In this document: one piece after another, positions 37,757-45,977 of the stretch
How positions within the stretch are numbered: position 1 is the first letter of the stretch
How the letters are laid out: the number at the start of each line of letters is the position of its first letter
Sequence record: OL964735.1
Length of the DNA: 64,000 nucleotides
DNA from: Escherichia phage T4
Reading direction: 5' to 3' (one strand)
The notes under the pieces: model-generated
What the model was told of the DNA's origin: nothing
What the model saw: only the letters and a program-made list of their open reading frames with translations
The model's database searches: none
Program-made: the position numbers and the translations under genes

Positions 37757-39344
<1,588 letters not shown>

Positions 39345-39371
39345 AATAAAATGGGCCTTGCGGCCCACTCC

Positions 39372-39874
39372 TTAAAAGTATTTTTTAAAACTCATCATAA
39401 CTTTATCATCAACATCATTATCAATCTGTGCAACAAGGTAAGATGACAGTTCTACTTCTTGCGGCGCGGATTGAACATTATCAGAATTAAGATATTCACG
39501 AATCCAAGGATATGGATGTTTAACCGGAGCATCGGTAATTGGGCATGGAAGACCGCACTGTTTCATACGAGATACAGTTAAGTAATCAATAAAGCTCCAC
39601 ATGCTATTTGTATTTAATCCAGGAACATCACCATCTTTAAATAAATGAACTGCCCAGTCTTTTTCCTGGCGGTTAACTTCCATGAAAATATCAACTGCTT
39701 CTTGTTCACACTCTTGGGCAATTTTAACCCATTCATCACCATCAGTACCGGATTGAAGTTGACGAATAATATATTGGGTGCCTTTAAGGTGAAGCTGTTC
39801 ATCACGTGCAATGAACTTCATAATCTTGGCATTACCTTCCATGATTTCCATGTTCTTATGGAAGTTAAAGGTAC
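39372..39874 (-). CDS. nrdB: ribonucleotide reductase small subunit NrdB, exon 2
   Basis: exon boundary inferred from frame, intron ending in G, and restoration of conserved YVSFACTFNF...MEGNAK sequence. Confidence 0.88.
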
Positions 39875-40472
39875 CGTATGTTCGATTGAGCTCGCTAATT
39901 CTCAACCCGTTCTCTTATGAACTGCTGCATGTTACCATGCAGTCCAGACTATATCACAATCCCGGAGGGATTCTCCCCATTTCGAGTCGCTTGACCCTAC
40001 GTCCGAAGACTAGTCGTTGAACCTTGTTTTGCAATTGTCGCCGTGCCATCGTTTATATGTTGATGGTGATAAATCTTTCTTATCACAATATGGACAATTC
40101 AATTGAATTCTATTTGGATTTAATTTACATCTGTCATTATGTTTTAGATAAAATCCAGGACCTTTACCAATGTGACCACAGAAATCACATGTGATTTCTT
40201 TTTGTGCAGGATGGGTCCCGTTCTTAACCATTTCTAATGTTTTTGCTGATGTTCTTTTCTTATGTTCTTCCATCAGAATCTTTAGGTATAGGTCCGTTAG
40301 CATCTATCCAAATTTTTCTATAGTTCAATTGTGCATCCTCTTAAAAGTATAATCATATTTATATTATACTAATTAAAGGTGCAAGCAAAACCTTGGCTGC
40401 TAGTTTTCCATAAAGGACTTTCCAGCAATTAAAGGAGTTTTCGATAAACGTTACCGTTTAAAGGCGCATTTT
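39875..40472 (-). mobile_element. group I intron in nrdB (598 nt) with degenerate homing endonuclease ORF
   Basis: in-frame stop directly after exon 1 U; core shared with td intron (TTTCGAGTC.CTTGACCCTAC); intron ends in G. Confidence 0.85.
40010..40303 (-). CDS. truncated intron-encoded endonuclease (I-TevIII remnant)
   Basis: 97-aa ORF inside intron with CxxC/HxxC zinc-finger-like motifs only; no catalytic domain. Confidence 0.75.
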   Translation of the reverse strand: MLTDLYLKILMEEHKKRTSAKTLEMVKNGTHPAQKEITCDFCGHIGKGPGFYLKHNDRCKLNPNRIQLNCPYCDKKDLSPSTYKRWHGDNCKTRFND

Positions 40473-41136
40473 ACGCAAAAGATACATAAAAACGAATAGC
40501 TTCTAAGGCATTAATAACGTGCAAACAGAGGTAAAGAGATTTCATCAGATCTCGTTTAGCTCTTTGCTCAACGTCTTTATCAGCTAGAATTAGACCTTGG
40601 TCTTTATAATATTCAACCATGTCTTTAGCATTTTCCCATTCACGGGTTTTAACCAAGACATCATCGTAATATCGCCCAATGGACTCAGCACGTTTCATAA
40701 TAGCTTCATCTAATACAATCTCATCAAACACCTTCGATGGATCAGTATAAAGATTTCGCATGATATGAGTATATGAACGACTGTGAATAGTTTCACTAAA
40801 AGTCCATGTAGCAACCCATGTATCAAGGCTTGGGTCTGAAATTAATGACATAAGTACAGCAGATGGCGCACGACCCTGAATGCTATCCAAAAGTGATTGA
40901 TACTTCAGGTTGTTAGTAAAAATATTTTGCTGATACTGAGGAAGCTTATTAAATTGCGCAGCATCCATCATTAAGTTTACTTCTTCAGGACGCCAAAAAA
41001 AACTGATCTGCCGCTCAATGAGTTCTTCAAATACTCGATGTCGTTGAATATCATATCGAGCTAAACCTAATCCAGAACCAAAGAACATCGGTTCATTCAA
41101 AACATCAACTGGATTTGTATTAAAAACTGTACTCAT
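40473..41136 (-). CDS. nrdB: ribonucleotide reductase small subunit NrdB, exon 1
   Basis: exon 1 plus exon 2 total 1167 nt = 388 aa plus stop. Confidence 0.88.
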
Positions 41137-41831
41137 TTAGAATCCTTAAATTTACATTTATCATAATGCCATCTTAAAGCATTGCCTTTATTAACTTTCT
41201 TACCACAGTGCGGGCAAGGTGGATACTCTGCTCCTTGTTTAGTTCTCAAAGAAATCAAATCACGGGTTTCTTTAGTATGAGGAACATCTCTTGTCGGAGA
41301 AATTGTACCATACATCGGATTAAGCACGCCGACTTTAGCAGCAGCTATATTCTTTTTAGCTTCTTCAGTTTTAGGCTTTCTCATCTTTTTCTTAGTTTCT
41401 TCGCTTTTAGCCCTTCCTTTGGTTGCCGCCGATATTTTGTGTTTGGTTTCTTCTGTTAAACGCAGACCTGTTTTCGCTTTTGACATTTTCAGTCTCGTTT
41501 CTTCAGAAATGACCGTACCTTTGCGAAATTGCGAATTTAACTTCTTTGCATGGGCATATATTTTAGAATGAACTTTATAATGACGTTTCTTAGTTCCTTT
41601 CATATTGCACATCATGAAAAATGCGAATATAACAGATTTTACCGGATAAATCTTTGATAAAATAGCATGCGCTATAAAATGCTCTCTAGCTGTTAATTCA
41701 ACTAAATTTTCTTTATCATCAGAACCTCCCATGCATCTAGGGATTATATGATGTGTCTCTTTATATTCGGATAAAGGTTCCCGAGCCTGAGCTCGGGAAA
41801 TTAGGTCGTTATAGATTTTTTGATAATTCAT
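41133..41831 (-). CDS. mobE: HNH homing endonuclease-like protein MobE
   Basis: 232-aa ORF; HHIIPRCMGGSDDKENLVELTAREH HNH motif; wedged between nrdA and nrdB with overlapping start/stop. Confidence 0.85.
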   Translation of the reverse strand: MNYQKIYNDLISRAQAREPLSEYKETHHIIPRCMGGSDDKENLVELTAREHFIAHAILSKIYPVKSVIFAFFMMCNMKGTKKRHYKVHSKIYAHAKKLNSQFRKGTVISEETRLKMSKAKTGLRLTEETKHKISAATKGRAKSEETKKKMRKPKTEEAKKNIAAAKVGVLNPMYGTISPTRDVPHTKETRDLISLRTKQGAEYPPCPHCGKKVNKGNALRWHYDKCKFKDSK

Positions 41832-44961: not shown

Positions 44962-45977
44962 CATTATGTTCAGATAAGGTCGTTAATCTTACCCCGGAAT
45001 TATATCCAGCTGCATGTCACCATGCAGAGCAGACTATATCTCCAACTTGTTAAAGCAAGTTGTCTATCGTTTCGAGTCACTTGACCCTACTCCCCAAAGG
45101 GATAGTCGTTAGGCATTTATGTAGAACCAATTCCATTTATCAGATTTTACACGATAAGTAACTAATCCAGACGAAATTTTAAAATGTCTAGCTGCATCTG
45201 CTGCACAATCAAAAATAACCCCATCACATGAAATCTTTTTAATATTACTAGGCTTTTTACCTTTCATCTTTTCTGATATTTTAGATTTAGTTATGTCTGA
45301 ATGCTTATGATTAAAGAATGAATTATTTTCACCTGAACGATTTCTGCATTTACTACAAGTATAAGCAGAAGTTTGTATGCGAACACCGCACTTACAAAAC
45401 TTATGGGTTTCTGGATTCCAACGCCCGTTTTTACTTCCGGGTTTACTGTAAAGAGCTTTCCGACCATCAGGTCCAAGTTTAAGCATCTTAGCTTTAACAG
45501 TTTCAGAACGTTTCTTAATAATTTCTTCTTTTAATGGATGCGTAGAACATGTATCACCAAACGTTGCATCAGCAATATTGTATCCATTAATTTTAGAATT
45601 AAGCTCTTTAATCCAAAAATTTTCTCGTTCAATAATCAAATCTTTCTCATATGGAATTTCTTCCAAAATAGAACATTCAAACACATTACCATGTTTGTTA
45701 AAAGACCTCTGAAGTTTTATAGAAGAATGGCATCCTTTTTCTAAATCTTTAAAATGCCTCTTCCATCTCTTTTCAAAATCTTTAGCACTTCCTACATATA
45801 CTTTATTGTTTAAAGTATTTTTAATCTGATAAATTCCGCTTTTCATAAATACCTCTTTAAATATAGAAGTATTTATTAAAGGGCAGTCCTACAATTTAGC
45901 ACGGGATTGTCTACTAGAGAGGTTCCCCGTTTAGATAGATTACAAGTATAAGTCACCTTATACTCAGGCCTCAATTA
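44962..45977 (-). mobile_element. group I intron in td (1016 nt) carrying I-TevI
   Basis: intron begins UAAUUGAGGCCUGAG immediately after exon 1 GGU and ends in G; contains GIY-YIG ORF. Confidence 0.93.
45109..45846 (-). CDS. intron-encoded GIY-YIG homing endonuclease I-TevI
   Basis: 245-aa ORF starting MKSGIYQIKN...KVYVGSA. Confidence 0.95.
   Translation of the reverse strand: MKSGIYQIKNTLNNKVYVGSAKDFEKRWKRHFKDLEKGCHSSIKLQRSFNKHGNVFECSILEEIPYEKDLIIERENFWIKELNSKINGYNIADATFGDTCSTHPLKEEIIKKRSETVKAKMLKLGPDGRKALYSKPGSKNGRWNPETHKFCKCGVRIQTSAYTCSKCRNRSGENNSFFNHKHSDITKSKISEKMKGKKPSNIKKISCDGVIFDCAADAARHFKISSGLVTYRVKSDKWNWFYINA

What the first reader, a model, noticed from the sequence alone, without database searches (positions are those of the whole stretch)
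39923..40016. The two introns share conserved catalytic-core blocks (paralogous ribozymes)
Blocks GCTGCATGT.ACCATGCAG..CAGACTATATC and TTTCGAGTC.CTTGACCCTAC...AGTCGTT are near-identical between 39923-40016 (nrdB intron) and 45003-45110 (td intron). Surrounding sequence and the endonuclease ORFs are unrelated. This supports a shared ribozyme scaffold with independently acquired or lost endonuclease cargo, and gives two homologous stretches that could recombine.
Basis: seen in the sequence. Interest (0 to 1): 0.4.

Follow-up and report, generated by a model that had tools for sequence, protein, structure and literature searches.

The report
T4 td and nrdB intron homology
The two similar stretches are the 3' ribozyme halves of the textbook self-splicing group I introns in the td and nrdB genes of phage T4; their homology, their unrelated endonuclease genes and their ability to recombine were described in 1988-1991, so the finding is real but ordinary.

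Summary
The window is bacteriophage T4, 100% identical to resequenced T4 records. The two regions lie in the nrdB intron (window 39875-40472, minus strand, 598 nt) and the td intron (44962-45977, minus strand, 1016 nt).

**Observation: confirmed.** The 3' halves align over about 145 nt. The score is 64, against 15.6 ± 2.2 for shuffles (z about 22). They share six collinear exact words of 8-11 nt. Similarity is confined to the 3' half: the 5' halves, ORF regions and exons show none (z about 0).

**What the blocks are.** They map to J6/7-P7, the P7.2 hairpin, J8/7-P7' and the P9 hairpin. The divergent stretches between them (P7.1, P3', P8, P9.2) keep their helices through compensatory changes.

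**Cargo.** The ORFs are unrelated: I-TevI is GIY-YIG, and I-TevIII is an HNH enzyme that has lost 491 nt in T4.

**Family context.** T4's third intron (nrdD) has the same blocks. At least 120 IMG/VR contigs carry the same P7.2 signature. Within that subfamily td and nrdB are only average relatives (68% identity; family median 61%), whereas td and nrdD are close (87%). This fits old co-resident homologues, not a recent duplication.

**Recombination.** Recombination between these introns was published by Hall, Liu and Shub (1989).

**Verdict:** already known.

The parts
39875..40472 (-). nrdB group I intron, 598 nt. 5' splice site after U40473; terminal G at 39875.
   Evidence: Removing it joins the exons into a full 388-aa NrdB. 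RF00028 matches: 35.7 bits over the whole intron and 19.6 bits for the 5' half. Annotated as a two-piece (joined) nrdB coding sequence in T4 record AF158101.
44962..45977 (-). td group I intron, 1016 nt. 5' splice site after U45978; terminal G at 44962.
   Evidence: Removing it gives a full 286-aa thymidylate synthase. RF00028 matches: 3' half 27 bits, 5' half 15.2 bits. Annotated as a two-piece (joined) td coding sequence.
40011..40018 (-). nrdB J6/7 plus P7 5' strand, AACGACUA. The I-TevIII stop codon UAG (40010-40012) overlaps it.
   Evidence: Exact word shared with td. P7 is 5/5 bp. At least 80% conserved across the subfamily.
45103..45110 (-). td J6/7 plus P7 5' strand, AACGACUA. The I-TevI stop codon UAA (45109-45111) overlaps J6/7.
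40001..40010 (-). nrdB P7.1 hairpin, GUC-UUCG-GAC. Differs in sequence from td P7.1.
   Evidence: Compensatory changes against td and nrdD at 2 pairs.
45091..45102 (-). td P7.1 hairpin, UCCC-UUUG-GGGA.
39980..40000 (-). nrdB P7.2 block, GUAGGGUCAAGCGACUCGAAA. The hairpin is GGGUC/GACUC and includes a G.U pair.
   Evidence: 20 of 21 nt identical to td. 5/5 bp. Subfamily signature found in at least 120 IMG/VR stretches, but in 0 of 129 group I cores sampled without using it.
45070..45090 (-). td P7.2 block, GUAGGGUCAAGUGACUCGAAA.
39958..39978 (-). nrdB P3' (GGGGAG, pairs with CUCCUU at 40432-40437) plus the P8 hairpin (AAUCCC/GGGAUU). Sequence unlike td.
   Evidence: P3 is 6/6 bp and P8 6/6 bp. 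P8 pairs are compensatory against td.
45043..45068 (-). td P3' (GAUAGA, pairs with UCUAUC at 45934-45939) plus the P8 hairpin (CAACUUG/CAAGUUG).
39945..39955 (-). nrdB J8/7 plus P7 3' strand, GAUAUAGUCUG.
   Evidence: Identical in td and nrdD. At least 95% conserved at most positions in the family.
45030..45040 (-). td J8/7 plus P7 3' strand, GAUAUAGUCUG.
39925..39942 (-). nrdB P9 hairpin, CUGCAUG-GUAA-CAUGCAG.
   Evidence: 7/7 bp. 17 of 18 nt identical to td and nrdD, yet this sequence occurs in only 6 of 115 distinct family rows.
45010..45027 (-). td P9 hairpin, CUGCAUG-GUGA-CAUGCAG.
39875..39924 (-). nrdB post-P9 tail: P9.2 (GGUUGAG/CUCAAUC) and GAACAUACG up to the 3' splice site.
   Evidence: Weaker but significant similarity to the td tail (z = 4.9). 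P9.2 is 7/7 bp.
44962..45009 (-). td post-P9 tail: P9.2 (GGUAAG/CUUAUC) and GAACAUAAUG up to the 3' splice site.
45109..45846 (-). I-TevI ORF (245 aa) in the P6a loop of the td intron.
   Evidence: Pfam GIY-YIG 2e-18, I-TevI_ZnF 1e-20, I-TevI_DNA-bd 3e-32.
40010..40328 (-). Decayed I-TevIII gene in the P6a loop of the nrdB intron. It consists of a 22-codon N-terminal remnant (40260-40328) and a 97-aa C-terminal ORF (40010-40303). The 491-nt deletion junction lies at 40265/40264.
   Evidence: Alignment with the 1091-nt RB3 intron: 98.8% identity outside the gap. RB3 I-TevIII has HNH_3 at residues 4-48. The T4 97-aa ORF has no Pfam hit.

Best explanation
The two stretches are the 3' domains (P7 to P9, continuing to the 3' splice site) of two homologous self-splicing group I introns of phage T4. 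Both are transcribed from the minus strand.

**How each part works in the RNA**
- AACGACUA and GAUAUAGUCUG pair to form P7. With J6/7 and J8/7 they form the guanosine-binding and substrate-docking core.
- GGGUC-AAGY-GACUC is the P7.2 hairpin, which with P7.1 is typical of phage IA-type introns.
- CUGCAUG-GURA-CAUGCAG is the P9 hairpin, closed by a GNRA tetraloop.
- The divergent spacers form P7.1, P3' (which pairs with the 5' half to give the P3/P7 pseudoknot), P8 and P9.2. Different sequences give the same helices.

**Splicing (established knowledge for these introns, not tested here).** Splicing goes through the standard two transesterifications: attack by an exogenous guanosine after the U.G pair in P1, then exon ligation after the terminal G.

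**Cargo.** Each intron carries a different homing-endonuclease gene looped out of P6a. td carries GIY-YIG I-TevI. nrdB carries HNH I-TevIII, which is internally deleted in T4. T4's third intron (nrdD) has the same blocks, but its ORF lies after P9. So ribozyme and cargo have separate histories.

**Recombination.** As direct repeats 5.09 kb apart, the blocks are substrates for homologous recombination. A crossover would delete nrdB exon 1, mobE, nrdA, nrdA.1, nrdA.2 and td exon 2, and leave a hybrid intron.

**Shown here:** identity with T4, intron boundaries, significance of the similarity, the helices and their covariation, the ORF families and the family context.
**Taken from the literature:** self-splicing chemistry and actual recombination.
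**Inferred:** which crossovers would give functional hybrids.
For: - **Identity with T4:** 100% over 7.2 kb to several T4 records, with td, nrdA, mobE, nrdB, I-TevI and I-TevIII annotated.
- **Boundaries:** removing 598 and 1016 nt restores full NrdB and thymidylate synthase.
- **Similarity:** z = 22 and z = 20.5 for the 3' halves only.
- **Rfam:** RF00028 aligns J6/7-P7, P3', P8, J8/7-P7' and P9 onto exactly these blocks in nrdB and td. The 5' halves match the model's 5' half.
- **Third intron:** the uninterrupted core of T4 nrdD carries the same blocks and scores 105.3 bits against a gathering score of 50.
- **Structure in the three T4 introns:** RNAalifold on a plain MAFFT alignment predicts P7, P7.1, P7.2, P8 and P9. 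The 27 hand-assigned pairs are 100% paired with 6 compensatory pairs, against 28-40% paired when partners are slid. The td MFE fold alone reproduces the same helices.
- **Long-range and distal helices:** P3 and P9.2 are fully paired in each intron with different sequences.
- **Family covariation:** a model of the T4 3' core finds 150 matches in 98 IMG/VR loci and only td and nrdB in the window. There, 97.7% of cells pair and 24 of 27 pairs show double changes, against 25-49% paired when slid.
- **Strand:** G.U pairs in P7.2, P3 and P9.2 fit only the minus-strand RNA.
- **Cargo:**
- **Literature:** Shub et al. [quoted passage not shown]' (reference list). [quoted passage not shown] PMC1865063 describes the three T4 introns and the T4 I-TevIII deletion.
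Against: - Neither intron reaches the Rfam gathering score in the intact window: there were no hits at gathering level, and the best scores were 35.7 bits for nrdB and 27 + 15 bits for the td halves. This is explained by the 340-760-nt ORF loops in P6a, but ORF-deleted constructs could not be scored with the tools available.
- The nrdB 3' domain alone has an MFE fold that differs from the consensus, and its z-score is only -1.6.
- The family alignment used for covariation was fitted to the model and sampled through the P7.2 pattern, so it leans towards the structure.
- Splicing and recombination were not tested here.
Confidence: 0.97

Rival explanations
1. Strict paralogy: one intron arose from the other by a recent duplication or transposition within the T4 genome, and the endonuclease gene was then swapped.
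For: - Both introns sit in one genome, 5 kb apart, in nucleotide-metabolism genes.
- They share the P7.2 subfamily signature.
- Their P9 hairpin is 17/18 identical, and that sequence is found in only 6 of 115 family rows.
Against: - Over 99 core columns td and nrdB are 68% identical, against a family median of 61%. From td, 51 introns from unrelated viral contigs are closer than nrdB is.
- The 5' halves have no detectable sequence similarity (z = 0.1).
- Apart from P9, nrdB shares the conserved blocks equally well with typical family members.
- Co-resident introns in other contigs are no more alike than non-co-resident ones (0.589 against 0.589).
Confidence: 0.07
2. The shared P9 hairpin, and possibly the neighbouring blocks, are kept alike by gene conversion between co-resident T4 introns. 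This would be concerted evolution on top of old homology.
For: - All three T4 introns carry CUGCAUG-GURA-CAUGCAG although P9 covaries freely in the family.
- nrdB introns exist as two P9 haplotypes. The T4 type has the td-like stem, and the RB3/ELT1 type reads CUGCAUA-GUAA-UAUGUAG.
- 4 of the 7 T4-RB3 differences cluster in or next to P9.
- Recombination between these introns is documented.
Against: - The T4-type nrdB P9 keeps its own GUAA loop between the td-like stem arms. A single continuous conversion tract from td (GUGA) does not fit.
- Two of the four clustered changes are one compensatory pair, which ordinary stem evolution explains.
- The same P9 occurs in a few unrelated contigs.
Confidence: 0.12
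3. Convergence: the blocks are alike only because any group I ribozyme needs these sequences, with no common ancestry beyond the class as a whole.
For: J6/7-P7 and J8/7-P7' are near-universal in the sampled introns.
Against: - The longest shared block, P7.2, is not universal. It was found in 0 of 129 distinct group I cores sampled through the J6/7 and J8/7 motifs alone.
- The similarity continues through the spacing, P9 and the post-P9 tail.
Confidence: 0.02
4. Chance, or a DNA-level signal such as a promoter or endonuclease site, rather than an RNA structure.
For: None beyond the AT-rich background, which gives many 8-10-nt chance words elsewhere in the introns.
Against: - z = 22, and no shuffle or other window tile comes near the observed score.
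- Covariation and strand-specific G.U pairs point to RNA.
- The Rfam alignments match these blocks.
Confidence: 0.005

Closest known systems
Phage T4 td intron (with I-TevI) and T4 nrdB intron (with defective I-TevIII)
   Same: Identical sequence: the window is 100% identical to T4 records. Intron lengths are 1016 and 598 nt, and the ORFs are as annotated.
   Different: Nothing. The window differs from the older AF158101 entry by 3 nt in 7.2 kb, outside the introns (mobE region).
Phage T4 nrdD (sunY) intron with I-TevII
   Same: - It has the same blocks: AACGACUA, GUAGGGUCAAGCGACCCGAAA, GAUAUAGUCUG and an identical P9.
- 87% identical to td and 73% to nrdB over the 3' core.
- Its 5' half is also similar to that of td (z = 14.5).
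   Different: - The ORF lies downstream of P9 rather than in P6a, so the core is uninterrupted and scores 105 bits on RF00028.
- It lies outside this window.
Rfam RF00028 (group I catalytic intron); by my recollection, subgroup IA2 of Michel and Westhof
   Same: P1-P9 architecture, the J6/7-P7 and J8/7 consensus, and the terminal G.
   Different: - Below the gathering score in situ because of the ORF loops.
- The P7.1/P7.2 insertion is treated as an insert by the Rfam model.
Other phage group I introns (Staphylococcus Twort, Bacillus, Pectobacterium, Yersinia, Pseudomonas phages; IMG/VR contigs)
   Same: - The nrdB 3' domain finds 831 phage records by blastn.
- At least 120 viral contigs carry the exact P7.2 block.
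- The helices covary across 115 distinct sequences.
- ORF-less members pass the Rfam gathering score.
   Different: Different host genes, different or no endonuclease cargo, and typically 44-74% core identity.

Membership tests
Group I self-splicing intron (RF00028) | Covariance-model score at or above the curated gathering score (50 bits) | tested here: not met
   - Nothing in the window reaches gathering level.
- nrdB scores 35.7 bits (E 2e-6). The td halves score 27 (E 2e-5) and 15.2 bits.
- The shortfall comes from the ORF loops in P6a. T4 nrdD, which has the same blocks and an uninterrupted core, scores 105.3 bits, and ORF-less subfamily members score 63-83 bits.
- ORF-deleted td and nrdB could not be scored with the tools available.
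Group I self-splicing intron (RF00028) | P3-P9 core helices including the P3/P7 pseudoknot, supported by covariation | tested here: met
   - P3, P4, P6a, P7, P8 and P9 are fully paired in td, nrdB and nrdD with differing sequences.
- There are 6 compensatory pairs among the three T4 introns.
- 24 of 27 pairs covary in 115 relatives.
Group I self-splicing intron (RF00028) | U.G pair at the 5' splice site in P1 and a terminal G at the 3' splice site, with removal restoring the host ORF | tested here: met
   - Exon 1 ends in U in both introns (U45978, U40473). That U pairs with a G of the internal guide sequence.
- The introns end in G (44962, 39875).
- The spliced ORFs encode full-length thymidylate synthase and NrdB.
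Group I self-splicing intron (RF00028) | Guanosine-initiated self-splicing in vitro | not testable with these tools
   Established experimentally for the T4 introns, as described in PMC1865063 and PMC2988022. Not tested here.
Phage IA-type subgroup (IA2) | Extra P7.1 and P7.2 hairpins between the P7 5' strand and P3' | tested here: met
   Both hairpins are present in td, nrdB and nrdD, and both covary in the family (helices 2 and 3). The IA2 label itself rests on my memory and on the 'group 1A intron' notes in AF158101.
GIY-YIG homing endonuclease (I-TevI) | GIY-YIG catalytic domain plus the I-TevI zinc finger and DNA-binding domain | tested here: met
   Pfam: PF01541 2.1e-18, PF22635 1.3e-20, PF20987 3.3e-32. 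All are above their cut-offs.
HNH homing endonuclease (I-TevIII) | HNH catalytic motif | tested here: not met
   - The T4 97-aa ORF has no Pfam hit.
- The full-length RB3 orthologue has HNH_3 at residues 4-48.
- T4 lacks the 491 nt that encode this region. The T4 copy is therefore a remnant, not a functional member.

The most novel reading that the evidence does not exclude
The three co-resident T4 introns exchange short sequence patches, giving concerted evolution of the P9 hairpin. More broadly, members of this phage intron subfamily may be mosaics whose 5' and 3' ribozyme halves have different histories.

The hints are these:
- All three T4 introns share a P9 sequence that is rare in the family (6 of 115 rows).
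- There are two nrdB-intron P9 haplotypes, and the T4-RB3 differences cluster there.
- A few pairs have discordant similarity between the 5' and 3' halves (for example td and L063_a, or L100_b and L100_d).

Domain shuffling between T4 introns was already shown in the laboratory, so only its natural extent would be new.
Probability: 0.1. Interest if true: 0.3.

Novelty: already known. Interest (0 to 1): 0.06.

Why it matters
It matters mainly as a check on the scan, because the biology is textbook.

- Historically, the T4 td/nrdB/nrdD trio underpinned three ideas. Ribozyme cores and homing-endonuclease genes are separate evolutionary modules. Introns can mediate exon and domain shuffling. Phage introns form one widespread mobile family.
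- One practical lesson: a default Rfam gathering-score scan of this window returns nothing, because the ORFs inserted in P6a split the model. ORF-bearing group I introns are therefore easily missed by routine annotation.

Tried and rejected
1. **Rfam at gathering threshold on the whole window:** no hit. This is a sensitivity failure caused by the ORF loops, not evidence of absence.
2. **Sequence similarity between the 5' ribozyme halves, the ORF loops and the exons of td and nrdB:** none found (z = 0.1, -0.4 and about -1). I considered reading the dissimilar 5' halves as a sign that nrdB is a chimera. I rejected that because most subfamily pairs with comparable 3' similarity also lack detectable 5' similarity.
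3. **Whether the shared blocks mark a special td-nrdB relationship:** except for P9 they do not. nrdB shares them equally with typical subfamily members. That sample was chosen through P7.2, so I drew a second sample without it. This showed P7.2 to be a subfamily signature and not a universal element.
4. **Whether co-resident introns are generally more alike than others:** they are not.
5. **A natural or deposited td/nrdB hybrid intron in 50,697 phage records:** none found. The only near-full-length hits are other introns at 77-81% identity.
6. **nrdB-type introns in IMG/VR, searched with a 21-nt nrdB-specific pattern:** no match.
7. **Literature:** Shub et al. 1988, Quirk et al. 1989 and the T4 genome review are not held in the library. 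Bryk and Belfort 1990 ('Spontaneous shuffling of domains between introns of phage T4', Nature) could not be found and is cited from memory only.
8. **Weak Rfam hits (L20 leader, snoRNAs, lncRNA fragments):** these are chance matches.

Full report
**Source and anatomy**

The 7.2-kb stretch around the finding is 100% identical to several phage T4 records and 99.9% identical to AF158101. The annotated genes, all on the minus strand, are denA, nrdB (two-piece (joined) coding sequence), I-TevIII, mobE, nrdA, nrdA.1, nrdA.2, td (two-piece (joined) coding sequence), I-TevI and frd.

I placed the splice sites from the sequence:
- The nrdB intron is window 40472 to 39875 (598 nt).
- The td intron is window 45977 to 44962 (1016 nt).

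Removing them yields uninterrupted 388-aa NrdB and 286-aa thymidylate synthase. The finding's two spans (39923-40016 and 45003-45110) are the P7-to-P9 parts of the two introns, read on the antisense strand.

Yes.
- The repeat finder lists the pairs as direct repeats: 41 nt at 83% identity and 28 nt at 86%, spaced 5085 and 5090 nt apart.
- A gapped local alignment of the 3' domains runs from AACGACUA almost to the 3' splice site and scores 64. In 2000 dinucleotide shuffles the mean was 15.6 ± 2.2 and the maximum 31. No other tile of the 64-kb window exceeds 30.
- Six exact words of 8-11 nt are collinear.
- The similarity is restricted to the 3' halves (z = 20.5), with a weaker continuation after P9 (z = 4.9). 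The 5' ribozyme halves, the ORF-bearing loops and the exons show none.

**What the blocks are**

RF00028 aligns to both regions and assigns the blocks to J6/7-P7, P3', P8, J8/7-P7' and P9. The 5' halves match the model's P1-P6 part.

In RNA sense the elements are:

| Element | Sequence | nrdB (window) | td (window) |
|---|---|---|---|
| J6/7 + P7 5' strand | AACGACUA | 40018-40011 | 45110-45103 |
| P7.1 | differs between introns | 40010-40001 | 45102-45091 |
| P7.2 block (hairpin GGGUC/GACUC) | GUAGGGUCAAGYGACUCGAAA | 40000-39980 | 45090-45070 |
| J8/7 + P7 3' strand | GAUAUAGUCUG | 39955-39945 | 45040-45030 |
| P9 | CUGCAUG-GURA-CAUGCAG | 39942-39925 | 45027-45010 |

The non-conserved spacers still form the same helices:

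| Helix | td | nrdB |
|---|---|---|
| P7.1 | UCCC/GGGA | GUC/GAC |
| P3 | UCUAUC/GAUAGA | CUCCUU/GGGGAG |
| P8 | CAACUUG/CAAGUUG | AAUCCC/GGGAUU |
| P9.2 | GGUAAG/CUUAUC | GGUUGAG/CUCAAUC |

All of these are fully paired.

Further support for the structure:
- RNAalifold, run on a plain MAFFT alignment of the three T4 introns, independently predicts P7, P7.1, P7.2, P8 and P9.
- My 27 assigned pairs are 100% paired with 6 compensatory pairs, against 28-40% paired when the partners are slid.
- The td domain's single-sequence MFE fold is exactly this structure. The nrdB domain's MFE is an alternative fold, and its centroid keeps P7, P7.2 and P9.
- G.U pairs in P7.2, P3 and P9.2 show that the minus-strand RNA is the functional strand.

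The longest block (P7.2) and P9 are peripheral elements.

**The third T4 intron and the wider family**

T4 nrdD (sunY) was fetched from AF158101. It carries the same blocks, but its ORF (I-TevII) lies after P9. Its uninterrupted core scores 105.3 bits on RF00028. This explains why td and nrdB, split by ORFs in P6a, fail the gathering score.

- The exact P7.2 block occurs in at least 120 IMG/VR stretches.
- A covariance model built from the three T4 3' cores finds 150 matches in those loci, and only td and nrdB in the window.
- On that alignment, which is fitted to the model, 97.7% of cells pair and 24 of 27 pairs show double changes.
- blastn with the nrdB 3' domain reaches 831 phage records, including Staphylococcus, Bacillus, Pseudomonas, Yersinia and Pectobacterium phages.
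- A second sample, drawn through the J6/7 and J8/7 motifs alone, contains the P7.2 block in 0 of 129 distinct cores. P7.2 therefore marks a subfamily to which all three T4 introns belong.

**How close are td and nrdB?**

| Pair | Identity over 99 core columns |
|---|---|
| td - nrdD | 87% (mutual nearest neighbours) |
| nrdB - nrdD | 73% |
| td - nrdB | 68% |
| Subfamily median | 61% |

- 51 of 149 other introns are closer to td than nrdB is.
- Taken block by block, nrdB matches typical subfamily members as well as it matches td in J6/7-P7, P7.2 and J8/7-P7'. Only P9 is unusually alike: 94% identity, reached by 7% of other rows. That P9 sequence occurs in 6 of 115 rows.
- Lack of similarity in the 5' halves is normal for subfamily pairs at this distance.

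The introns are therefore old homologues of one mobile subfamily. They are not a recent duplication within T4.

**Cargo**

- I-TevI has GIY-YIG, zinc-finger and DNA-binding domains.
- The T4 I-TevIII ORF (97 aa) has no domain hit and no similarity to I-TevI (E = 1.3).
- Compared with the 1091-nt RB3 intron, T4 lacks 491 nt after intron position 208 and is 98.8% identical elsewhere. The lost segment encodes the HNH_3 domain. This agrees with PMC1865063 and with Eddy and Gold 1991, as cited there.
- Both ORFs sit in the P6a loop, and both run into the core. The I-TevIII stop codon lies inside the P7 5' strand, and the I-TevI stop codon lies in J6/7.

**Recombination**

The blocks are direct repeats. 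A crossover would delete 5,085-5,092 bp and create a hybrid intron of about 1,011-1,018 nt.
- Crossovers 3' of P8 keep td's own P3 (6/6 bp).
- Crossovers 5' of P3' give a 4/6 P3 and probably impair splicing. This is my inference.
- The ligated td-exon1/nrdB-exon2 message would be out of frame.
- No deposited phage genome carries such a junction.

That these two introns do recombine is the subject of Hall, Liu and Shub, Nature 340:574 (1989); I saw its title in a reference list. Their homology is the subject of Shub et al., PNAS 85:1151 (1988). From memory I also recall Bryk and Belfort, Nature 1990, on spontaneous domain shuffling between T4 introns. I could not retrieve that paper.

**Verdict**

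The feature is already known, so interest is low.

Noticed in passing
window 41133-41831 (-): In this window mobE is one intact 232-aa ORF with HNH and NUMOD3 domains. The older T4 entry AF158101.6 splits the region into nrdB.1 plus a shorter mobE. The window matches resequenced T4 records at 100% and AF158101 at 99.9% (7201 against 7204 nt).
   Followed up: partly
window 40260-40328 and 40010-40303 (-); junction at 40265/40264: The T4 nrdB intron holds a decayed I-TevIII gene. A 22-codon N-terminal remnant with a TTG start is followed, in another frame, by the 97-aa zinc-finger C-terminus. A 491-nt deletion relative to phage RB3 removed the HNH domain.
   Followed up: yes
window 40010-40012 and 45109-45111 (-): Both endonuclease ORFs end inside conserved ribozyme sequence. 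The I-TevIII stop codon UAG overlaps the P7 5' strand, and the I-TevI stop codon UAA lies in J6/7. The last codons and the ribozyme core therefore constrain each other.
   Followed up: partly
window 39925-39943 (-), compared with L243 (RB3) and L244 (ELT1): nrdB introns come in two P9 haplotypes. T4, GBLB0003, SHFML-26 and HY03 have CUGCAUG-GUAA-CAUGCAG, with the td-like stem. RB3 and ELT1 have CUGCAUA-GUAA-UAUGUAG. Four of the seven T4-RB3 differences in 598 nt cluster here, and one pair is compensatory. This could reflect stem co-evolution or a short conversion patch.
   Followed up: partly
L100 2789-4020; L063 333-908; also L154, L090, L096: Some IMG/VR viral contigs carry several small ORF-less group I introns of this subfamily packed head to tail. 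L100 has four RF00028 matches of 63-83 bits within 1.2 kb, leaving apparent exons of only about 50-100 nt. These look like heavily intron-riddled genes, but the host genes were not identified.
   Followed up: partly
whole window: The default Rfam gathering-score scan finds no RNA family in the 64-kb window, although it contains two classical group I introns. The ORF inserts in P6a defeat the model.
   Followed up: yes
window 39337-39463 (-): A sub-threshold 'L20 leader' Rfam match (21.9 bits, E 0.85) covers the GC-rich hairpin GGGCCGCAAGGCCC just downstream of nrdB and before denA. It is probably a terminator-like stem and a chance match to that family.
   Followed up: no
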